Part shown: positions 14,932-30,986 of the stretch, piece by piece
How the letters are laid out: each line of letters starts with the position of its first letter
Numbering within the stretch: the first letter of the stretch is position 1
Sequence record: PZ534534.1
Direction: 5' to 3' (one strand)
DNA length: 64,000 nucleotides
From: a phage
The notes under the pieces: model-generated
Databases searched by the model: none
What the model saw: only the letters and a program-made list of their open reading frames with translations
Told to the model about the DNA's origin: nothing
Position numbers and translations under genes: made by a program

Positions 14932-16308
14932 ATGCCATATTTAGATAAAGTGGTAGATGTTACAGTTAACCTCGGAACCCAGCCTATTGACACTGTAGGT
15001 TTCGAAACTCCGCTGTTCATCGCTATCCACAACAACTTTACTGAGCGAGCTCGTGTATATGCTGAGCTGGATCAGATGGTGGAAGACGGTTTCGCACAAG
15101 GCTCTGCAGCTTATGAGTTTGCAGCAAAAGCTTTCGGCGGTGTATTCCCTCCGCAGTATGTTATGATCGGCAGACAGGCAAAAGAAAAAACCACTGTAGA
15201 TTTTAAAGGTATTGCTGCCGCAGCTGATACCGATGTCGTAATGACTATTGCAAAAGGTGGCTACAATACTTCTCTGATAGTGCCTATCTCTGGTGGAACA
15301 GGTGCAACTCAGATTGCAGAGTCCATGAAGACTAAAATCGAAGCAGATGATAACTTGGACGATATCACTGTAGCGGCTGAAGACGGTGTTCTCACCATCA
15401 CGGGTGACTGTACTGTTGGTTATCATACTGGTAACTATACAATCAAAAATATCGCCAATGCTGAAAAACCTTCTACAGTAGTTGATAAGATCAATGCTGA
15501 GCGTGACAATTGGTACTTCCTGTGCCATGAAGACCACACCGACATTGAAGCATGTGCGAAGTGGGCTCAGGCTAACTACAAGCTGCATGTCTACTCTACT
15601 GCAGAAGATGTGACTGGCAAAGATAATAACATCGCCACCAAACTGATGGCTGCACAATATGACAGTGTTGGCATGTACGATCCTCGTGCAGATAAGGACT
15701 TCCCGGAGGGTGGTATCATAGGTGCTATGGCATCCAACGATCCGTCTTACGGCGACAGCTTGCACTTAAAACAGATGCCAGGTGTGATTGCACCGTCTCT
15801 GACTTTAACTCAGCGTATGGCTATTTGGGAAAACCACGTTAACTTCTACAGAATGATTAACGGTGTTGGCGCTTTCTGGGAAGGTAAGTGTGCTTCAGGT
15901 CAGTATGCAGACGCTATTCGTTTTGCACACTGGATCAAGTTCAGATCTGAAGAATCTATGTTTGGGTACATGCATCGTCGCTCCAACATGGGTTTAAGCA
16001 TGAAGATGTCTGATGATGATCTTCCGGTTATCAAGTCTGTCCTGATGAACAACCCAATCAACACTGGCATTAAGAATGGTGCGATCCTGACAGGTTTCGA
16101 CGAAGACAATAATGTATTCTACGACCCGATCATCACAGTTCCTAAACGTGCAGAAATCCCAACCAATCAGTTGGCTGCTCGTGTTCTGGAAGGTGTGAAA
16201 GTAGAACTGGTGTATAACAACGCCCTGCACTTCGTCCGTATCCGGATCAACGTCCTTCTGGACAAAGTTGGTTCTAAATCCACCAATGCTGTTGCAATGA
16301 CTGAATAA
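14932..16308 (+). CDS. major tail protein, tail sheath-like (putative)
   Basis: 458 aa, strong RBS, codon-biased; positioned before the tube-like gene, chaperones and tape measure. Confidence 0.5.
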   Translation: MPYLDKVVDVTVNLGTQPIDTVGFETPLFIAIHNNFTERARVYAELDQMVEDGFAQGSAAYEFAAKAFGGVFPPQYVMIGRQAKEKTTVDFKGIAAAADTDVVMTIAKGGYNTSLIVPISGGTGATQIAESMKTKIEADDNLDDITVAAEDGVLTITGDCTVGYHTGNYTIKNIANAEKPSTVVDKINAERDNWYFLCHEDHTDIEACAKWAQANYKLHVYSTAEDVTGKDNNIATKLMAAQYDSVGMYDPRADKDFPEGGIIGAMASNDPSYGDSLHLKQMPGVIAPSLTLTQRMAIWENHVNFYRMINGVGAFWEGKCASGQYADAIRFAHWIKFRSEESMFGYMHRRSNMGLSMKMSDDDLPVIKSVLMNNPINTGIKNGAILTGFDEDNNVFYDPIITVPKRAEIPTNQLAARVLEGVKVELVYNNALHFVRIRINVLLDKVGSKSTNAVAMTE

Positions 16309-16318
16309 GGAAGCCTAG

Positions 16319-16792
16319 ATGGAAACTCAAATTTTAACTCCTTATGCGTATGACCCTAAAAAGGTCAAACTGTATCTGATGCAGCAGCGTGTCACTGGCT
16401 TCGCTGCTGACACCAAGATTGTTGTTTCAAGAAACGAAGACAACATTTATCCTCACGTCGGTGTGGATGGTGAAATGTCTGCGGCTCTGTCCCGTAACCA
16501 ATCCGGTGTTATGACTGTATCTTTGCAGAACACTTCTGTATGGAACGCTTACCTTTCTGACTGGCAGAAACAGGCATCTATTACTGGCCTGGTATTCTTC
16601 CCGGTTCTGCTGGAAGGTAGCCAGGGCCCTGGTATTTCCACAATCGGTTGGATCCAGAAACAGCCTGACCTGACTTACGGAACCGAAGTAGGTCAACTGG
16701 ACTGGGATATCGGTATTCTGGATGCATGGCTCAACCGTGATAACATCACTGGTGCTCTTACTGGCCTCGCAGGTCTTGCAGGTATTATTTAA
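16319..16792 (+). CDS. tail tube-like protein (putative)
   Basis: 157 aa directly after the sheath-like gene and before chaperones; followed by a terminator. Confidence 0.45.
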   Translation: METQILTPYAYDPKKVKLYLMQQRVTGFAADTKIVVSRNEDNIYPHVGVDGEMSAALSRNQSGVMTVSLQNTSVWNAYLSDWQKQASITGLVFFPVLLEGSQGPGISTIGWIQKQPDLTYGTEVGQLDWDIGILDAWLNRDNITGALTGLAGLAGII

Positions 16793-16810
16793 GGGCACAC
16801 TTTAGCATAA

Positions 16811-16837
16811 GCCTCACCTTCGGGTGGGGCTTTTTGC
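16811..16837 (+). terminator. rho-independent terminator
   Basis: Hairpin CCTCACCttcgGGTGGGG followed by CTTTTTGCTTTT. Confidence 0.65.
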
Positions 16838-16882: not shown

Positions 16883-16911
16883 TTGACAATGCACCATAAT
16901 CATGGTAAAAT
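16883..16911 (+). promoter_or_regulatory. sigma70-like promoter (TTGACA-17-TAAAAT, TGGTAAAATA family)
   Basis: Consensus -35 and -10 with 17-nt spacer upstream of the chaperone gene. Confidence 0.6.
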
Positions 16912-16954
16912 ACACAAATATGGTGCACAACATGACTAATAAGGATGCTATAAA

Positions 16955-17428
16955 ATGGCTATAAACTTTAGACCTACAACAGAGATTGATTTAGCAGGGC
17001 ACAACTTTGTGATCACCCACTGGGGGCCGATGAAAGCAATGAAAAACATGCCTAAAATCGGTAAGATTGTGGCTGTCCCGCTAGGTGCTATCGGTGGATC
17101 TATTCTCTCAGGTGGTCAGAATATGGCAGAGGTCCTTCCTACAGCCCTGGCTTACCTGTTCCAAGAACTTGATGATAACTCCATTGAAGAGCTATTTAAA
17201 ATCTTGTTCGAAGATATTACCGTAGATGGTGTGGATAGGCTTAACCCGGATGTTGTGTTTGCAGGGCATCTGCTGGAGATGATTAAGCTGGCAGGTAAGG
17301 TTCTGGAGGTTAACTACGGCTGTTTTTTCACACAAGACGGTTTAGGAAGCCTTCTGGAGATGTTACAGCAGATGGGTATGATTCAGCAGGTGAACAATCT
17401 GGATCAGACTCCGGAAGAGCAGGAATAA
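16955..17428 (+). CDS. tail assembly chaperone (lambda G-like)
   Basis: 157-aa acidic protein directly upstream of the tape measure gene; contains a slippery heptamer near its 3' end. Confidence 0.6.
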   Translation: MAINFRPTTEIDLAGHNFVITHWGPMKAMKNMPKIGKIVAVPLGAIGGSILSGGQNMAEVLPTALAYLFQELDDNSIEELFKILFEDITVDGVDRLNPDVVFAGHLLEMIKLAGKVLEVNYGCFFTQDGLGSLLEMLQQMGMIQQVNNLDQTPEEQE

Positions 17429-17688
17429 GCAAGGTTGTTGTGAGGGCCAGTGAGTGGGCAGCCAAGAACAGTTCACTAAACTGGTTCGACTTTCTTTGGT
17501 GCAGGGTGCTCAAGAATTTCAAAGGGGAAAATTTTGAATCGCTAAATCTTGCAGATATGGCGTATTTCCTGAAGCTATGTGAGTATCTTGATATCGAAGA
17601 ATTCCTAGATACCGTCCAAAACAGGGAAATGGAGCGGGAGCAGAAGGCTGCCGCAGCTGCTGCGAAAGCTAAGCGCAGGAGAGGATAA
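16955..17688 (+). CDS. tail assembly chaperone frameshift fusion product (lambda GT-like)
   Basis: Downstream ORF (17440..17688) has no independent ATG or RBS, lies in the -1 frame and overlaps the upstream ORF, as in the lambda G/GT paradigm. Confidence 0.5.
17323..17329 (+). promoter_or_regulatory. programmed -1 ribosomal frameshift slippery site (T TTT TTC)
   Basis: X XXY YYZ heptamer in the zero frame of the chaperone gene; the -1 frame is open from 17314 to 17688. Confidence 0.55.
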
Positions 17689-17692
17689 TCTA

Positions 17693-17728
17693 AGGGCCGG
17701 ATTCCTTTTCTGGGATCTGGCCCTTTTT
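17693..17728 (+). terminator. rho-independent terminator
   Basis: Hairpin GGGCCGGAT...ATCTGGCCC followed by TTTTTATT. Confidence 0.6.
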
Positions 17729-17742
17729 ATTATGAGGAAACC

Positions 17743-20079
17743 ATGGCTACAAACAAAATAGTTGCCACAACAGTCAACAAGATTGGCTTTGAGATAGAGA
17801 ACTCCTCCTACAAAAAAGCTGTAGAGAAAATTCGCAGTATTGGGAGGGAGTTCAGGAAACTGGGCGAGGATTTTAACTCAGCCAACCCCATGAGTAGATG
17901 GCAGGCAGTGGCGGTTAAAACTCAGCAGACAATGCAACGTGTTGCCAGACAACAATCTCAAGCAAATGCTAAACTGCACAGGGAGAGCGTTGCTCAGGCT
18001 AAGAAAGAGGCTGCAGTAAAGGCTGCAATAGAGCGTAGGGAGAATGCAAGACGTAGGCAAGCTGTAGGCAATCTTACCGCCAAAAACCCAGAGATGGCTA
18101 GGATGCGTAAGTTCTACCAGCAGCAAGCTAAAGAGGCTAAAAAAGCTGCCAAATCTGCACCAGTATCCTATGGGGGTTATAAGGCACCTAAGGCAAGAGT
18201 TCTTGCTAACGCCAAGTCTTTCAGATATATTCCAGGCAACCCGAACATGGGTGGAGTGGCTTCAGATCCTAATCTTGTGAAAGCCCAGACCGCTGCCATG
18301 AATCGTTATCATAGACAGCTAAGAAGAGACAGTAAAGCTGGTATGGATAATAGGCTTATGTCGGATCGTGAGGCAAGGAGAACCCACCTCTACAACTCCG
18401 CGATAAGACTTTCTGCCAAGTATGGGGCCGGATTCCGTGGAAGCTTGCCAGGATACTCAGAGTTAGAGTCCAGGTTTGCTCGCGGGGAGATGAAGAAGTC
18501 AACCTTTAACGCCCACCTGTCAGCGCTGCAGTCTGGGTTTAAAAGCGCCACCAGCCAAACGCTTACACTAGGCGATGCCATGAGAGACTTACGTAGATCT
18601 GTTATTAATGCAACAGCTGCGTATACAGCTTTTTCTGGATTTGCTGCAGTTAATAGATCCGGTCACATGATGGAGGGGGCAAGTGCTGCTCTTACTGCTG
18701 TTACTGGAGATCCAAACAAAGCTAACAGTGAGGTTGCGTTTGTCCAGCAAGAGGCTATGCGTCTTGGTTTTGATCTCAAATCTGGTCTTCAAGGTTACGC
18801 CCAGATGTCGGTAAACGCCAAAAACCAGATGACAAATCAGGAAGTGCATGAGCTGTTTTCTGCATACTCCCAGTATGCTGCTGCTTATGGTGCCGATGAG
18901 GTAAAATACCAGCGCGGTATTATGGCAATCCAGCAAATGCTCGGTAAAGGGCAAGTAATGTCCGAAGAACTGAAGCAACAACTTGCTGAAGCATTGCCTG
19001 GTGCATACGAACCTTTTATCAAGGCCACCAAAGAGGCTTTTGGTCTTTCTGAACTCTCCATGGATCAGTTCATGGACATGATGAAGAAAGGTGAGGTTAA
19101 AACAGCCAAGATCATGAAGTATGTGGCTAAGTACATGAACGAGGCATCTGCAGCTGGTTATGAAAGAATGCAGAAGTCTAACGTGCTGGCAGAAAACAGA
19201 CTGAAAACCTTCATCGAACTGACTCGTCAGAAACTGTTCACCCGTTGGTCTGACGAACTAACAGAGTTCTATTATACACTGATCCGCACGGGTGAGACTC
19301 TGCAATTTGTGTGGGATGCCTCTGGTGATTTTGTTAGCGGGTTTGTGAGAGGCCTTAACTGGGTAGTTGGTGAACTAAACAACACTATAGTCAAGATCCG
19401 CATGTTTTTCCTTGAATGGGGGATTAAATGGGGGTTCATAACAGCCAAGACGAAGGAATATTCTGAAGAGCTTCATGACACCTTTAGCTATGCTAAATGG
19501 GCAGGGTTTGCTGCTGCCATCATGCTGGTCGTCAACGCCCTAACAAAAGGTTTTGTCATGGCATCTATGCTTGTAAAAACCTTTAAATTCCTTAACTCTC
19601 TAAGGGGTGCAGCTGGAGCAGCGGGTGCCGCTACTACAGAAGGATCTGGTGGTGGAGCTCCGGCAGGAAAAGGTGGAGGTGGCCTCAAGACACCTGGTGG
19701 CAAAGTTGGTCTGCTCGGTAAGCTGGGCATTATCGGTACAATACTAAGCGCCGGGGAATTATTTAATGACCGTTACAACCCACTAAGTGAAAGAAATCAG
19801 CAGCTGGATACTATCAGCGATATGATTCGCAAAGATATCATATCGGGAGGTAACGGGTTTGTTAATCCTTTGGACACCTTACCGGGCGGGACTCTTCCGT
19901 TGCCGGGTGGCCCTGGTTTTGCTTCTCAATTAAGAACTATGGAAATGCTACCTTTAGAGATCAGTGATGGGAAAATCACGATTTCAATAGATGAGGGTGA
20001 GTTTAACAAAATATTTGATGCAAAACTTGAGTGGGAGAACAATAAAGATATCAACTTCATGTCTACCGACCTTTGGTAA
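17743..20079 (+). CDS. tail tape measure protein
   Basis: 778 aa, basic Ala/Gln-rich coiled coil N-terminus, conserved tape-measure core block (QQMLGKGQVMSEELKQQLAEALPGAYEPF), Gly-rich C-terminal region. Confidence 0.85.
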   Translation: MATNKIVATTVNKIGFEIENSSYKKAVEKIRSIGREFRKLGEDFNSANPMSRWQAVAVKTQQTMQRVARQQSQANAKLHRESVAQAKKEAAVKAAIERRENARRRQAVGNLTAKNPEMARMRKFYQQQAKEAKKAAKSAPVSYGGYKAPKARVLANAKSFRYIPGNPNMGGVASDPNLVKAQTAAMNRYHRQLRRDSKAGMDNRLMSDREARRTHLYNSAIRLSAKYGAGFRGSLPGYSELESRFARGEMKKSTFNAHLSALQSGFKSATSQTLTLGDAMRDLRRSVINATAAYTAFSGFAAVNRSGHMMEGASAALTAVTGDPNKANSEVAFVQQEAMRLGFDLKSGLQGYAQMSVNAKNQMTNQEVHELFSAYSQYAAAYGADEVKYQRGIMAIQQMLGKGQVMSEELKQQLAEALPGAYEPFIKATKEAFGLSELSMDQFMDMMKKGEVKTAKIMKYVAKYMNEASAAGYERMQKSNVLAENRLKTFIELTRQKLFTRWSDELTEFYYTLIRTGETLQFVWDASGDFVSGFVRGLNWVVGELNNTIVKIRMFFLEWGIKWGFITAKTKEYSEELHDTFSYAKWAGFAAAIMLVVNALTKGFVMASMLVKTFKFLNSLRGAAGAAGAATTEGSGGGAPAGKGGGGLKTPGGKVGLLGKLGIIGTILSAGELFNDRYNPLSERNQQLDTISDMIRKDIISGGNGFVNPLDTLPGGTLPLPGGPGFASQLRTMEMLPLEISDGKITISIDEGEFNKIFDAKLEWENNKDINFMSTDLW

Positions 20080-27185: not shown

Positions 27186-30100
27186 ATGGCTGATATTAAA
27201 GTTGTCAGAATTGAATCTCTTCCTGCCACTACCGCAGTGACAGAGGATGATTACCTGGTTGTTCAACAACCAGACCTGACTCGTCGTGTAAAAATTGGCG
27301 ATGTTGTCCATGTGGATGGGACTGTTTCTCATGTAATCTCCTTTAAGGAAGGTGGTAAGTTAAACGGCCCAATGGATTTTGCCTACTTCGAAGAGGAAGA
27401 CCTCTACCTGCGTTGGAAAGGCGAATTTCCACACACTGTTCCTGCACTGTCTTCACCGTACGCTGATGGTGGGATTACTGACGCTGCATGGATGGTATAT
27501 ACTGACCCGTCCCTAAGGGAGGAGCTGGAATCTACCATTGGCGCATCTATGATCATGACAGCCGAAGGGCAGTCTGTCCAGGATGTAATGGATGTTACTG
27601 TTCAGACAGCTAACGATGCTAAAGCACTTGCACAGCGTGTAGATTTTGGTACAGTGCACACTGTAGGCGATGTTATTCACCTTGATAACTTTGTTGGCCC
27701 TGCAGTTATTGAAGAGGGAAGAACTACCAACTACCCTTCTGTAGCAGCTGGTGAAAAATTTCTGAACGGTGTGGTATCTCGTCGTGATACTACAACTGTT
27801 GATGGTATTTTCCGTGGCGCTACCACCGGAGCTATGTACACCATTGCAGTAACCAACGGTGTAGCAACAACAAAAAGAATAGCACTTCGTGATGAATTTA
27901 AACGCCTAGAGACAAATAACCCAACAAGAACAGTTATCCGTGCTGGAGATGATTTAAATACGGCAGGGTACTTGCAGCTTGATGCAACAGGCCGTTGGGG
28001 TATGTGGAACCAACAAACAGCTTCGTGGCAACCTCTTGCTATAGAGCAAGGCGGCACAGGGGCTAGAGATGCCGCTGGAGTCCGTATCAATATCGGTGCT
28101 TTCTATAAGCAGCGTGCTGCGCTTGATGCAAATTTCAATATCAATAATTTGACTGGTAATCAGGATGGTATATACTACCAGCCGATGACTGCTAATGCAA
28201 CTGAGGCAAATGGTTACCCTGCAGGTTCTGGTGCTGGTCACTTGATTGTTTGGCAGAACAATGCTAACGGCGGTACAGGGTGTCGTCAGGAATACTATCC
28301 ATTCTCTAACGTAGATGTTTGGTATTTGAGAACCTATCAGGCCAACACAAATCAGTGGACTGCATGGCAGCCGATGGTCAGACCTCGTAACGATGATACC
28401 TTCAGATCTCATATTGGCCTTGGTAAAAACAACTCGCCAGCCTTCGGGCACCTTTACTTAGCTCAATACTCGGGAGATGTTAAATCGGCCTCAGGTATTC
28501 TCCATGGAGATAAATATAATACTGACGGTGTCCTTGAGCATGGATATAGGATCTATTCTGAGGTAAGAAACGACAATAAGGCTTGGTTGACAATCCACCT
28601 GCACAAAGGTGCAAAAGGATCTGAAACTCATAGATATTTAGGTTTACGCGAAGACGGCGTGTTAGACTGCCCTAAATACATGCAGGTTGGGGATCTTACT
28701 GGTCAGCTGACAAACTGGGGACTTGGAGAGTGGATTCGTAGTTCAGGAGCAGAAAGAGGCTTCTGGGGGTCCAAGAAAGCCGCCAAGATGGTCGTCTGGG
28801 ATGGTGGGATGGATGAGTCCGGTAACGGCACTCTGGAATGGGGTGTTTATAACAACCGGAAGGCCAAGTGGGAACCTTTATCTCACGCCGCAGGTGGCAC
28901 TGGGGCTACAACCCTGGCAGATGCTCAGAATCTGTTCAAAGTTCCTATAGCTGCGGGTGTCAAAGATTTCTTAACACTGCCAAGAACTGCAGGGATGGAA
29001 GATGGGAAATACTACCCAATCATCGTTAGAACAGATCCGTACTATGCTCCAGCAACTGGTACTGATATTACCATAGTTACCAGATCGTCATCCGGCAGTG
29101 ACCCTATGAACTGCGCTACTCTGCAGTGCCATTACAGAACTGGGGGCTGGACAGACAGAGGAGACTCTTTCTACGGGGTAGTAAATTTCTACCAGAATGA
29201 AAAAGCACTTCTTGGGATGGTTGCTCCAACAAGGGGTAAACAAGAGTATGTTGCTTTCTATGTAGAGGCTCGTGCTTTCCCTGTCAGCGTATACGCAAGT
29301 AGAAATGTTGTAGAAGTGTTTACCAGAGAGCAAGATTACCAGGTCGGAGCTGTAACAGACAATCAGGACGGTGTTAAGTTTGTTGCGCCTCTCCAGTCAG
29401 CAGATTTGAATCTTGCTGTTCTTGGAGATAACAATACCAACACCAGACCTATTGTTGACTTCAAAGGTACCTCTGGGTTCTACACTGGCGGCGGCACACA
29501 GTGGCACTATATAGGCACTGCTGAACGCTATGCGGTGATGAGCAAAATGAACATGCCTAAAGTCGAACTATGGGCTGACGGTATTGACTATTTGTGCTAT
29601 GGCAGCCCTAGAAAGGCGTTATTCTCTAATGCAGGATTCCAGTGTGCATCAGATGGAACAGAGGATCTAACTAACGGTACGTTTACCTCTAAATGCGGTA
29701 ATGGTGCTGGCCTCAAAGGTCAGGCAGAGTTCAGATCTACCCCAGAAGCTGGTCAAGTTATTGTTCGCGATGTTGTGGGCACAGCTCACAGATTCTACAA
29801 TTTCAACAAAGACGGTACTTTCTCGGCCCCTGGTGGTTTTGTATGTCATACTGGTGGAGACTGGAACAACCAGTTTGGGTCTAATAACCCGTCAAAAATA
29901 ATGGCGGGTAATGTTAACGGACCAGAAGGCTCGATGGTTGTTGGTGGACTGTCTGTGGCGTTCTCTGGAAACTATGCTTTCCAAATGGCTGGACGCCTTG
30001 ATCAGTTATACACCAGATCTATCGAGGGTGGTAACCATAGAGCGTGGAACAAGGTCATACAACACAGAGGGCAAGGTCTGGGGATTAATGACCTTAACGA

Positions 30101-30986
30101 CTACAAAGGGGATAGGGAAGGTTTTTATCATCAGGAGGCCAATGCTCAAGCCACACCTGATAGAAACTACCCATGCTCCCGGGCAGGTACGCTTATCGTG
30201 TACAGGAACTACGCCAATGTTCCAGAGAGTTGCGTACAGGAGTATATATCATATCTTGGGGAAAAATTCCTGCGTTATGGAACAACAATAGGTAGTGTTT
30301 TCACATGGGGACCTTGGCAGCAGCTTGGTGGTAAGGGAATTACTCTTAAAACCGCAGGTTCCAATCTTGACCCAGAGTTCATGATACATACAGGTGGTGG
30401 GACCGATGTTACCAACACTTCCAACATGCCTTCTAATACAGGCAGAATGTACTACTGGGGTAATGGCGCAGACAGGAAGAACGTGCTTGAGTTTCAGATA
30501 AACGACAACGCTACATCTGCCAGTTGGGTATGGCATTGTGGTGCTAAGACAGATGAGGCCAAGTCAAGGTACTTTGCTGTCAACGGCGTAGTAGAGTGCA
30601 CCGCTGTCAGCCAGAGCTCTGACCGTGACCTGAAGGATAACATAGAGGTTATTCCTAACGCGTTGGAAGCTATCCGTAAGATGAAAGGCTATACCTACAC
30701 TCTAAAAGAGAATGGTATGCCTCACGCGGGGGTAATTGCTCAAGAGGTTATGGAAGCATTGCCTGAAGCGGTTGGTTCTTTCGTGAAAAGGAAAGAGGTT
30801 CCTGGTCCTACTCAAGATGGTATTCCTCTGATGACCGAGGAAAGATTCTATAATGTTGACTATGCGGCTGTAACAGGATTGCTTGTTCAGGTTTGCAGAG
30901 AACAAGATGATAAAATAACCGCCCTTGAGGAGCAGGTTAAAAAATTGACAGAGGTTGTTACTGGGTTGCAAGAGAAACTGAAGTAA
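27186..30986 (+). CDS. long tail fibre with C-terminal intramolecular chaperone (peptidase S74) domain
   Basis: C-terminal block SDRDLKDNIEV...GYTYTLK...GVIAQEV is the hallmark of the self-cleaving chaperone domain of endosialidases and T5 L-shaped fibres; N-terminal anchor domain shared with the 23883 protein. Confidence 0.8.
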   Translation: MADIKVVRIESLPATTAVTEDDYLVVQQPDLTRRVKIGDVVHVDGTVSHVISFKEGGKLNGPMDFAYFEEEDLYLRWKGEFPHTVPALSSPYADGGITDAAWMVYTDPSLREELESTIGASMIMTAEGQSVQDVMDVTVQTANDAKALAQRVDFGTVHTVGDVIHLDNFVGPAVIEEGRTTNYPSVAAGEKFLNGVVSRRDTTTVDGIFRGATTGAMYTIAVTNGVATTKRIALRDEFKRLETNNPTRTVIRAGDDLNTAGYLQLDATGRWGMWNQQTASWQPLAIEQGGTGARDAAGVRINIGAFYKQRAALDANFNINNLTGNQDGIYYQPMTANATEANGYPAGSGAGHLIVWQNNANGGTGCRQEYYPFSNVDVWYLRTYQANTNQWTAWQPMVRPRNDDTFRSHIGLGKNNSPAFGHLYLAQYSGDVKSASGILHGDKYNTDGVLEHGYRIYSEVRNDNKAWLTIHLHKGAKGSETHRYLGLREDGVLDCPKYMQVGDLTGQLTNWGLGEWIRSSGAERGFWGSKKAAKMVVWDGGMDESGNGTLEWGVYNNRKAKWEPLSHAAGGTGATTLADAQNLFKVPIAAGVKDFLTLPRTAGMEDGKYYPIIVRTDPYYAPATGTDITIVTRSSSGSDPMNCATLQCHYRTGGWTDRGDSFYGVVNFYQNEKALLGMVAPTRGKQEYVAFYVEARAFPVSVYASRNVVEVFTREQDYQVGAVTDNQDGVKFVAPLQSADLNLAVLGDNNTNTRPIVDFKGTSGFYTGGGTQWHYIGTAERYAVMSKMNMPKVELWADGIDYLCYGSPRKALFSNAGFQCASDGTEDLTNGTFTSKCGNGAGLKGQAEFRSTPEAGQVIVRDVVGTAHRFYNFNKDGTFSAPGGFVCHTGGDWNNQFGSNNPSKIMAGNVNGPEGSMVVGGLSVAFSGNYAFQMAGRLDQLYTRSIEGGNHRAWNKVIQHRGQGLGINDLNDYKGDREGFYHQEANAQATPDRNYPCSRAGTLIVYRNYANVPESCVQEYISYLGEKFLRYGTTIGSVFTWGPWQQLGGKGITLKTAGSNLDPEFMIHTGGGTDVTNTSNMPSNTGRMYYWGNGADRKNVLEFQINDNATSASWVWHCGAKTDEAKSRYFAVNGVVECTAVSQSSDRDLKDNIEVIPNALEAIRKMKGYTYTLKENGMPHAGVIAQEVMEALPEAVGSFVKRKEVPGPTQDGIPLMTEERFYNVDYAAVTGLLVQVCREQDDKITALEEQVKKLTEVVTGLQEKLK

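What the first reader, a model, noticed from the sequence alone, without database searches (positions are those of the whole stretch)
16955..17688. Programmed -1 frameshift predicted in the tail assembly chaperone pair
The ORF downstream of the chaperone gene has no ATG or RBS of its own, is in the -1 frame, and its frame is open from 17314, overlapping the chaperone 3' end. A canonical slippery heptamer T TTT TTC sits at 17323..17329 in the zero frame. This reproduces the conserved G/GT arrangement immediately upstream of the tape measure gene.
Basis: partly seen in the sequence, partly recalled or inferred. Interest (0 to 1): 0.5.

Follow-up and report, generated by a model that had tools for sequence, protein, structure and literature searches.

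The report
Tail chaperone -1 frameshift, rV5-like phage
This is the usual "G/GT" trick of long-tailed phages: a few ribosomes slip back one base near the end of the tail assembly chaperone gene and make a longer second protein. It is an ordinary mechanism, but public records of this phage group do not annotate it.

Summary
The window is an rV5-like E. coli myovirus (Vequintavirus). The gene order is sheath, tube, tail assembly chaperone (TAC, 16955-17428), a -1-frame ORF open 17314-17688, then tape measure (17743-20079). T_TTT_TTC lies at 17323-17329 in the TAC zero frame.

Comparative evidence strongly supports a programmed -1 ribosomal frameshift giving a 244-aa GT-type fusion:
- In 46 of 46 distinct related loci (down to 28% identity) the -1 frame stays open from just before the site to 224-296 nt past the TAC stop, while the +1 frame closes quickly.
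- A canonical heptamer sits at the same place in all 46: T_TTT_TTC in 43, C_CCT_TTT in 1, G_GGA_AAG/C in 2.
- The codon before Phe-Phe changes amino acid (Cys, Ser, Pro) but always ends in T.
- The downstream ORF has no conserved start codon or ribosome-binding site.

No conserved downstream RNA structure exists. A GGAGG 13 nt upstream is only partly conserved.

This is a new member of a well-known kind, so it is of low surprise. Its value is annotation: sampled Vequintavirus records call the T part "hypothetical protein" or leave it blank. No experiment has confirmed the fusion protein.

The parts
16809..16832 (+). Intrinsic-terminator-like hairpin followed by a T run, after the tail tube gene
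   Evidence: 10-bp stem, 6 G-C pairs.
16883..16911 (+). Sigma-70-type promoter upstream of the chaperone gene (TTGACA-17-TAAAAT with TG)
   Evidence: 11 of 12 matches. Its position (72 bases upstream of the chaperone ATG) corresponds to promoter P51 annotated in rV5 records.
16955..17428 (+). Tail assembly chaperone, short zero-frame product (G-like, TAC-N): 157 aa, 17.3 kDa. AAGGA ribosome-binding site at 16941-16945.
   Evidence: PF21822, 84 bits; phrog_3840, E=1.5e-68.
17305..17309 (+). Internal Shine-Dalgarno-like GGAGG, 13 nt upstream of the heptamer. Candidate stimulator, unproven.
   Evidence: present as GAGG in about half of the diverged contexts and absent in Certrevirus, Klebsiella K54-type and Aeromonas-type loci. 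Spacing lies within the 6-17 nt stimulatory range cited in PMC4066793.
17311..17313 (+). TAA in the -1 frame, which opens immediately after it, 10 nt before the slip site
17323..17329 (+). Slippery heptamer T_TTT_TTC in the zero frame (P site TTT, A site TTC; both tRNA-Phe re-pair on TTT TTT)
   Evidence: same heptamer at the homologous place in 43 of 46 distinct loci.
17329..17688 (+). -1-frame extension (T part, 119 aa): short basic motif HTRRFRKP, Gly/Ser/Asp-rich variable linker, then a conserved C-terminal domain of about 70 aa. The fusion is join(16955..17329,17329..17688), 244 aa, 27.1 kDa.
   Evidence: (phrog_10409).
17440..17688 (+). Alternative independently initiated 82-aa reading (GTG start, weak AAGG 5 nt upstream). 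Rival or additional product.
   Evidence: The start is not conserved in relatives.
17692..17725 (+). Intrinsic-terminator-like hairpin between the T part and the tape measure gene
   Evidence: 14-bp stem. A terminator is annotated at the corresponding place, directly after the T ORF, in rV5.
17743..20079 (+). Tape measure protein gene (778 aa), the presumed client of the chaperone
   Evidence: PF20155 TMP_3; phrog_5255.

Best explanation
This is a lambda G/GT-type programmed -1 ribosomal frameshift in the tail assembly chaperone gene of an rV5-like myovirus.

How it most likely works. Most ribosomes translate 16955-17428 and release the 157-aa chaperone. A minority slip while two tRNA-Phe occupy TTT (P site) and TTC (A site) of T_TTT_TTC at 17323-17329. 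Both tRNAs re-pair one base back on TTT TTT, and the next codon read is CAC at 17329. These ribosomes continue to 17688 and make a 244-aa fusion: chaperone residues 1-125, a flexible Gly/Ser/Asp linker, and a conserved helical C-terminal domain.

By analogy with lambda gpG/gpGT (inferred, not shown here), the shared N-terminal domain coats the tape measure protein. The C-terminal domain of the rare long form recruits the tube protein, so that tube and sheath polymerise to the measured length. Neither form ends up in the virion.

Shown by sequence and comparison: the layout, the heptamer, its conservation, and the lack of a conserved start codon. Inferred: that slippage actually occurs, how efficient it is, and what the T domain binds.
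For: - Anatomy is exact.
- Gene order is sheath, tube, TAC, T, tape measure, with TAC passing Pfam's curated cut-off.
- 12 GenBank relatives at 28-54% TAC identity, plus IMG/VR loci, give 46 distinct loci. All keep the -1 frame open across the TAC stop (overlap 85-157 nt, extension 224-296 nt). The +1 frame ends 7-61 nt after the stop.
- A canonical heptamer lies at the same alignment position in all 46 loci. Barba-type phages carry G_GGA_AAG or G_GGA_AAC there.
- In 25 distinct sequence contexts the codon before Phe-Phe is TGT, TCT, AGT or CCT (Cys, Ser or Pro). It always ends in T, and the first Phe codon is always TTT. Local codon usage would give roughly 0.3 per lineage.
- No conserved start or Shine-Dalgarno sequence precedes the T part. 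In 12 of 33 distinct T sequences the first ATG/GTG/TTG lies downstream of the conserved LxW[FY]D core, for example codon 89 of 131 in Klebsiella K54_rec2.
- Linker length varies between relatives, yet the frame stays continuous with the slip site.
- Gene callers rarely call the T ORF: 3 protein clusters, against 73 for TAC.
- H_HH.U_UU.Y heptamers are among the most efficient in E. coli (PMC4066793).
- The CB7 virion proteome lists sheath, tube and tape measure, but the part of its protein table seen jumps from CB7_18 to CB7_23, omitting the TAC and T ORFs.
- The same inference was published for the sister clades Vandenendeviridae and Andersonviridae (PMC12846349).
Against: - There is no direct protein evidence for a fusion in any Vequintavirinae phage.
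- No significant or conserved downstream RNA structure was found: z = -0.72, and 0 consensus pairs across 13 diverged loci.
- The upstream GGAGG is only partly conserved.
- In this genome a GTG with a weak AAGG lies 11 nt after the TAC stop. It could yield nearly the whole T domain on its own.
- No relative with an in-frame G-T fusion was found to serve as a "Rosetta stone".
- The Phe-Phe dipeptide is conserved as protein, so part of the heptamer conservation is protein-level.
Confidence: 0.88

Rival explanations
1. There is no frameshift. The downstream ORF is a separate small gene translated from GTG 17440, either by direct initiation or by termination-reinitiation coupling after the TAC stop 11 nt upstream. 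It would give an 82-aa, 9.7-kDa protein.
For: - GTG at 17440 has AAGG 5 nt upstream, and AGGA lies at 17421-17424.
- Gene callers predict this 82-aa product: P0074 (29 member sequences) and phrog_10409 (an 82-position profile).
- Most sampled GenBank records annotate it as a separate hypothetical protein.
Against: - The start is not conserved. The first possible start ranges from codon 30 to codon 85 after the slip site, and in 12 of 33 distinct sequences it falls inside the conserved domain.
- No relative has a Shine-Dalgarno match longer than 4-5 nt at a useful distance.
- This reading does not explain why the 85-157 nt overlap is stop-free in 46 of 46 loci, given a -1-frame stop rate of 8.9% per codon nearby. 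It also does not explain why a heptamer is kept at synonymous sites.
Confidence: 0.07
2. The frame change happens during transcription. RNA polymerase stutters on the T6 run (17323-17328) and inserts one extra U into a fraction of the mRNAs, which then encode the fusion in a single frame.
For: The site contains a homopolymeric T6 run, T7 if the preceding T-ending codons are counted loosely. Transcriptional slippage is a documented route to such fusions (review PMC5009743). Runs of U7 are avoided in all frames in E. coli genes (PMC4066793).
Against: - Six T is shorter than the runs usually needed for appreciable slippage in E. coli (about 8-9 or more; this is my own knowledge).
- Homologous sites in Barba-type phages are G_GGA_AAG and G_GGA_AAC. 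KLEP7 has C_CCT_TTT. These are tandem-slippage heptamers rather than long homopolymers.
- The strict zero-frame phase of the heptamer in all loci is a requirement for ribosomal slippage, not for transcriptional slippage.
Confidence: 0.04
3. The arrangement is a chance or relict overlap with no functional fusion. The T region would be a decaying or non-coding remnant.
For: No protein evidence exists, and the T part matches no Pfam family.
Against: The T domain is conserved as protein in the -1 frame across subfamilies (LxWFD...YLD motifs). The layout is kept in 46 of 46 loci.
Confidence: 0.01

Closest known systems
Bacteriophage lambda gpG / gpGT tail assembly chaperones (Levin, Hendrix & Casjens 1993; Xu, Hendrix & Duda 2004, 2013, 2014; summarised in PMC5009743)
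   Same: - Two overlapping ORFs lie directly upstream of the tape measure gene.
[quoted passage not shown]
- The expected products are an abundant short form and a rare long form.
- Barba-type relatives of this locus carry G_GGA_AAG at the homologous site (lambda's heptamer, from my own memory).
- No strong stimulatory structure is evident.
   Different: - This is a myovirus, so the gene upstream encodes a tube protein under a sheath.
- There is no detectable sequence similarity to lambda G or T. The TAC belongs to Pfam Phage_TAC_15, and the T part has no Pfam family.
- The heptamer here is T_TTT_TTC.
- The slip site lies 35 codons before the G stop, so the short form has a private, acidic 32-aa tail.
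- The unit has its own promoter and is bracketed by terminators.
Phage P2 gpE / gpE+E' (myovirus tail chaperone frameshift; Christie et al. 2002). Recalled from memory, not checked here, apart from the statement in PMC5009743 that P2-type efficiency is 2-3 times higher than lambda's.
   Same: It is a contractile-tailed phage with a -1 frameshift on a T-rich heptamer (T_TTT_TTG as I recall), located between the tube and tape measure genes.
   Different: No sequence homology was tested. P2 is a small temperate phage with a different tail gene order.
TAC-N / TAC-NC locus of Pakpunavirus Adele and other Vandenendeviridae, and of Andersonviridae (PMC12846349, December 2025)
   Same: - These are sister clades of Vequintavirinae with orthologous virion modules.
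- The same mis-annotation occurs ("hypothetical protein" downstream of the TAC).
- The -1 frame is always open, and a conserved GTTTTT-type motif lies near the 3' end of TAC-N.
- The frameshift is inferred by the same kind of comparative argument.
   Different: That paper aligned Vandenendeviridae and Andersonviridae loci, not Vequintavirinae or Stephanstirmvirinae. The case here extends the pattern to those groups and shows the full X_XXY_YYZ phase and the synonymous-site signal.
E. coli dnaX -1 frameshift (upstream SD plus downstream hairpin)
   Same: It uses a canonical heptamer in E. coli. Here an SD-like GGAGG lies 13 nt upstream, within the stimulatory window.
   Different: There is no downstream hairpin, and the SD-like element is not conserved among relatives. 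Here the product is longer than the zero-frame protein, whereas in dnaX it is shorter.

Membership tests
G/GT-type tail assembly chaperone with conserved programmed frameshift (Xu, Hendrix & Duda 2004) | A pair of overlapping ORFs located between the major tail/tube gene and the tape measure gene | tested here: met
   Tube 16319-16792 (PF11681, phrog_280). TAC 16955-17428. -1 ORF runs to 17688. Tape measure 17743-20079 (PF20155, phrog_5255)..
G/GT-type tail assembly chaperone with conserved programmed frameshift (Xu, Hendrix & Duda 2004) | The second ORF is in an alternative frame, overlaps the 3' end of the first, and the arrangement is conserved in relatives | tested here: met
   -1 frame open 17314-17688. 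46 of 46 distinct related loci keep it, and the +1 frame is closed.
G/GT-type tail assembly chaperone with conserved programmed frameshift (Xu, Hendrix & Duda 2004) | A slippery sequence in the zero frame within the overlap | tested here: met
   T_TTT_TTC at 17323-17329. A canonical heptamer is present at the homologous site in all 46 loci, conserved at synonymous sites.
G/GT-type tail assembly chaperone with conserved programmed frameshift (Xu, Hendrix & Duda 2004) | The second ORF lacks its own conserved translation start | tested here: met
   No conserved start or SD. In 12 of 33 sequences the first start falls inside the conserved domain. In this genome alone a weak GTG site exists.
G/GT-type tail assembly chaperone with conserved programmed frameshift (Xu, Hendrix & Duda 2004) | The first ORF belongs to a recognised TAC protein family | tested here: met
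   PF21822 Phage_TAC_15 at 84.1 bits against a cut-off of 22. phrog_3840 at E=1.5e-68.
G/GT-type tail assembly chaperone with conserved programmed frameshift (Xu, Hendrix & Duda 2004) | Both a short and a frameshifted long protein are actually made, in a fixed ratio, and both are needed for tail assembly | not testable with these tools
   This needs proteomics, reporters or genetics. No publication on it for Vequintavirinae was found.
G/GT-type tail assembly chaperone with conserved programmed frameshift (Xu, Hendrix & Duda 2004) | The products are absent from the mature virion | tested here: inconclusive
   Indirect only. The part of the CB7 (Certrevirus) virion mass-spectrometry table that was seen lists CB7_17, CB7_18 and CB7_23 but not CB7_19 or CB7_20. 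The rV5 paper has no mention of these proteins.
dnaX/IS-type stimulated -1 frameshift signal | A downstream stem-loop or pseudoknot 5-9 nt after the heptamer | tested here: not met
   The MFE of 17323-17430 is not better than shuffles (z = -0.72). RNAalifold on 13 diverged loci gives 0 pairs.
dnaX/IS-type stimulated -1 frameshift signal | An SD-like sequence 6-17 nt upstream of the heptamer | tested here: inconclusive
   GGAGG at 17305-17309 has a 13-nt spacer. It is encoded by the conserved Leu-Glu-Val. GAGG is kept in about half of the diverged contexts, close to the local GAG codon usage of 0.51.
Transcriptional slippage site | A long homopolymeric A or T run, with no requirement for codon phase | tested here: not met
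   The run is only T6. Homologous sites in relatives are G_GGA_AAG, G_GGA_AAC and C_CCT_TTT, always in X_XXY_YYZ phase.

The most novel reading that the evidence does not exclude
The locus may make three products rather than two: G, the GT fusion, and a free 82-aa T domain started at GTG 17440 by reinitiation after the G stop. The slip rate would be tuned by the internal GGAGG 13 nt upstream. The whole unit would be transcriptionally insulated by its own promoter and flanking terminators, setting the chaperone-to-tape-measure stoichiometry. That would be a lineage-specific elaboration of the G/GT scheme in Vequintavirus.
Probability: 0.12. Interest if true: 0.35.

Novelty: new member of a known kind. 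Interest (0 to 1): 0.2.

Why it matters
The main value is for annotation and phage engineering. rV5-like phages are widely isolated and used as therapy and biocontrol candidates.

- In a sample of 60 of the 118 matching records, none annotates the T part as a chaperone. It is called "hypothetical protein" or "Phage protein", or left blank.
- The rV5 reference record starts ORF50 at a CTG inside the slip site.

A joined CDS, join(16955..17329,17329..17688), would correct this across Vequintavirinae, Stephanstirmvirinae and related Aeromonas and Rheinheimera phages.

It also adds a clean example in E. coli of U_UUU_UUC used without an obvious RNA stimulator. Anyone recoding or synthesising these genomes should know that synonymous changes at 17321-17329 are not neutral. 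It does not change our understanding of frameshifting or tail assembly.

Tried and rejected
- Downstream stimulatory structure. Single-sequence folding and a consensus fold over 13 diverged loci found nothing. I rejected it as a conserved feature.
- "Rosetta-stone" in-frame G-T fusion proteins. Two database searches, one with the fusion and one with the T part, returned only TAC proteins of 149-159 aa and three T ORFs of 80-82 aa. No fusion was found.
- Structure of the fusion.
- Structure of the T part with 4 sequences. Mean pLDDT was 51, with a helical C-terminal half and a disordered first ~30 residues. This is too poor for a fold search, so none was run.
- PDB sequence search. For the TAC there was only a marginal hit to 5ir0_A "uncharacterized protein ORF19" (E=0.003). 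For the T part there was nothing.
- Pfam for the T part gave no family.
- Upstream GGAGG as a conserved stimulator. Its conservation is no better than codon usage predicts, so I kept it only as a candidate.
- A second frameshift candidate in the window (AAAGGGG at 30105) is a shadow ORF inside the 27186-30986 gene. I rejected it.
- Literature. Neither the rV5 genome/proteome paper nor the CB7 paper mentions a frameshift.

Full report
**What the window is.** The 2-kb stretch around the finding is 97% identical to Escherichia phages BP9 and rV5. In all, 123 phage records match this stretch, mostly Vequintavirus at 95-99% identity.

On the + strand the tail module runs as follows:
- Sheath, 14932-16308 (DUF3383, phrog_205).
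- Tube, 16319-16792 (PF11681, phrog_280).
- A 157-aa protein, 16955-17428. It passes Pfam's curated cut-off for Phage_TAC_15 (84.1 bits against 22) and matches phrog_3840 "tail assembly chaperone" at 1.5e-68.
- A small ORF ending at 17688.
- The tape measure protein, 17743-20079 (PF20155, phrog_5255).

**Checking the observation.** Every coordinate is right.
- The chaperone is in frame 2 and the downstream ORF in frame 1, which is the -1 frame.
- A TAA at 17311-17313 closes the -1 frame. It is then open from 17314 to the TAA at 17686-17688, a run of 124 sense codons.
- The zero-frame codons are TGT TTT TTC (Cys123 Phe124 Phe125). T_TTT_TTC at 17323-17329 is therefore in the X_XXY_YYZ phase needed for tandem slippage. 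tRNA-Phe in the P site (TTT) and A site (TTC) can both re-pair perfectly on TTT TTT.
- The predicted fusion is join(16955..17329,17329..17688): 244 aa and 27.1 kDa, against 17.3 kDa for the short form.

The downstream ORF does have a GTG at 17440 with a weak AAGG 5 nt upstream, and some gene callers predict the 82-aa product.

**Is it more than chance?**
- In ten neighbouring genes the -1 frame carries a stop at 8.9% of codons. The median open run is 7 codons and the longest is 60. The 35 stop-free codons of the overlap alone have a probability of about 0.04 per genome.
- Of 47 zero-frame heptamers in + strand ORFs of at least 100 aa, only this one lies in a real gene and also leads into a -1 frame running far past the stop. 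The other case, at 30105, is a shadow ORF nested in the 1266-aa gene 27186-30986.
- TTTTTTC is under-represented in the window: 8 found against 17.8 expected.

**Comparative test.** This is the core of the argument. A tblastn search with the chaperone found 491 phage records. I fetched 12 diverged ones with 28-54% identity:
- PVP-SE1, Av-05, Klebsiella K54_rec2, CB7, PBES02, KLEP7.
- phAPEC8, PhAER-3, Barba19A, 4L372D, Eryne, phi1_175008.

I added 41 IMG/VR loci found with the alignment. After removing duplicates there are 46 distinct loci. The results were:
- In all 46 the -1 frame is open from shortly before the homologous site to 224-296 nt past the chaperone stop. The overlap is 85-157 nt. 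The +1 frame ends 7-61 nt after the stop.
- All 46 have a canonical heptamer in zero-frame phase at the same alignment position, the NYGxFF motif. It is T_TTT_TTC in 43, C_CCT_TTT in KLEP7, and G_GGA_AAG or G_GGA_AAC in the two Barba-type loci.
- The conservation is at nucleotide level, not merely protein level. In 25 distinct sequence contexts the residue before Phe-Phe is Cys (TGT, 11), Pro (CCT, 9), Ser (AGT, 3) or Ser (TCT, 2). It always ends in T, and the first Phe is always TTT. Local codon usage gives T-ending codons about 0.4-0.5 and TTT 0.59.
- That is roughly 0.3 per independent lineage, over about a dozen lineages. They are phylogenetically related, so this is not an exact probability.

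**The T part.** Translated in the -1 frame it has three sections:
- A short conserved basic motif, FF-H/R/Q-x-R-F-R.
- A Gly/Ser/Asp/Thr-rich linker whose length varies between relatives while always staying in frame.
- A conserved C-terminal domain of about 70 aa (ISKVV-RA-EYA-KNSSL-WFD-L ... EYLDI-EF).

There is no conserved start codon or Shine-Dalgarno sequence for this domain. The first ATG/GTG/TTG after the slip site ranges from codon 30 to codon 85. In 12 of 33 distinct sequences it falls downstream of the LxW[FY]D core. In Klebsiella K54_rec2 the first start is codon 89 of 131 of the -1 ORF.

Gene callers consequently call the T ORF rarely and inconsistently. There are 3 protein clusters for it, against 73 for the chaperone. 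The conserved domain can be translated in all these phages only if ribosomes enter from the chaperone frame.

**Stimulators.**
- The 108 nt from the heptamer onward fold no better than shuffled sequence (z = -0.72).
- A consensus fold across 13 diverged loci predicts no pairs.
- A GGAGG at 17305-17309 lies 13 nt upstream, inside the 6-17 nt range in which SD-like elements are searched for and reported as stimulatory in E. coli (PMC4066793).
- That GGAGG is encoded by the conserved Leu-Glu-Val. The GAG codon is kept in only about half of the diverged contexts, close to the local GAG usage of 0.51. It remains a candidate only.
- The heptamer class H_HH.U_UU.Y is among the most efficient in E. 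coli, and U_UU.U_UU.C is listed as a motif used by IS elements.

**Mechanism and rivals.** The best explanation is a lambda-type G/GT frameshift. An abundant short chaperone and a rare long form share the N-terminal domain. In lambda that domain coats the tape measure protein, and the -1-encoded T domain recruits the tail tube subunit. Neither protein is in the virion (PMC5009743). For this phage those protein functions are inferred by analogy.

One piece of evidence is consistent with this but indirect. The part of the CB7 virion proteome table that I saw lists sheath, tube and tape measure. It jumps from CB7_18 to CB7_23, omitting the two chaperone ORFs.

The rivals are:
- Independent initiation or reinitiation at GTG 17440. 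This is possible in this genome, is not conserved, and leaves the stop-free overlap and the heptamer unexplained.
- Transcriptional slippage on T6. The run is short, and the relatives use non-homopolymeric heptamers in strict codon phase.
- A chance relic. This is excluded by protein-level conservation of the T domain.

**Comparison with what is known.** The phenomenon is the conserved tail-chaperone frameshift of Xu, Hendrix and Duda (2004).

A December 2025 paper inferred the same thing, by the same logic, for the sister clades Vandenendeviridae and Andersonviridae (PMC12846349). It noted a GTTTTT motif and the habitual mis-annotation of the downstream fragment as a hypothetical protein. It did not analyse Vequintavirinae.

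I found no paper describing the frameshift in rV5-like phages:
- The rV5 genome/proteome paper does not mention it.
- The CB7 paper does not mention it.
- Combined searches returned nothing else.

In GenBank, rV5 annotates ORF50 as a separate CDS beginning at a CTG inside the slip site. In a sample of 60 of the 118 matching records, the T region is "hypothetical protein", "Phage protein" or unannotated.

**Verdict.** This is an ordinary mechanism in a group where it has not been annotated: a new member of a known kind with low surprise. It is useful for annotation and for anyone recoding these therapeutic-candidate phages. My confidence that a GT-type fusion is made by -1 ribosomal slippage at 17323-17329 is about 0.88. 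The missing piece is direct protein evidence.

Noticed in passing
window 16809-16832, 16883-16911, 17692-17725: The chaperone pair is its own small transcription unit. A terminator-like hairpin follows the tube gene, a near-consensus extended -10 promoter precedes the chaperone, and a second terminator-like hairpin separates the T part from the tape measure gene. The promoter and the terminator after the T part are annotated in rV5. This may set the chaperone-to-tape-measure stoichiometry.
   Followed up: partly
L001/L002 2521-2889 (rV5 ORF50), equivalent to window 17320-17688: The rV5 reference records annotate the T part as a separate 122-aa CDS starting at a CTG codon that overlaps the slippery heptamer. 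That is not a plausible start. Many sister records give "hypothetical protein" or nothing here.
   Followed up: yes
(records MG0656xx): About 18-23 records named "Campylobacter phage" (host Campylobacter jejuni) are 96-99% identical to E. coli rV5-like phages over this region. The host label looks doubtful, or the phages were propagated on a contaminant.
   Followed up: no
window, whole: TTTTTTC occurs 8 times on both strands, against 17.8 +/- 4.0 expected from dinucleotide shuffles. This agrees with the general avoidance of shift-prone U-rich heptamers reported for E. coli genes.
   Followed up: no
window 29911-30291 (heptamer AAAGGGG at 30105): A naive scan for a heptamer plus a long -1 extension also flags this ORF. 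It is a shadow ORF nested in the -1 frame of the 1266-aa gene 27186-30986, so it is a false positive.
   Followed up: yes
L009, L013, L014, L039, L041-L054 (phAPEC8/Eryne-type loci): Stephanstirmvirinae-type relatives carry CCCTTTTTTC. It contains two overlapping in-phase heptamers (C_CCT_TTT and T_TTT_TTC), so it offers two adjacent slip positions that give the same frame.
   Followed up: no
L011 2120-2758 (- strand); L006 2312-3382: In Barba19A an HNH endonuclease gene on the opposite strand is inserted between the T part and the tape measure gene. CB7 has two extra ORFs there. The chaperone-tape measure adjacency is therefore not absolute in this clade.
   Followed up: no
(PDB 5ir0_A): The chaperone profile has a marginal match (E=0.003, residues 31-138 to 29-137) to a solved 161-aa "uncharacterized protein ORF19". 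It may be a structural homologue of this TAC family. Its origin was not checked.
   Followed up: no
L008 1333-1953 (KLEP7): The KLEP7 chaperone is annotated with an N-terminal extension of about 50 aa (206 aa in total) that all the other relatives lack. It may be a mis-called start or a real extra segment.
   Followed up: no
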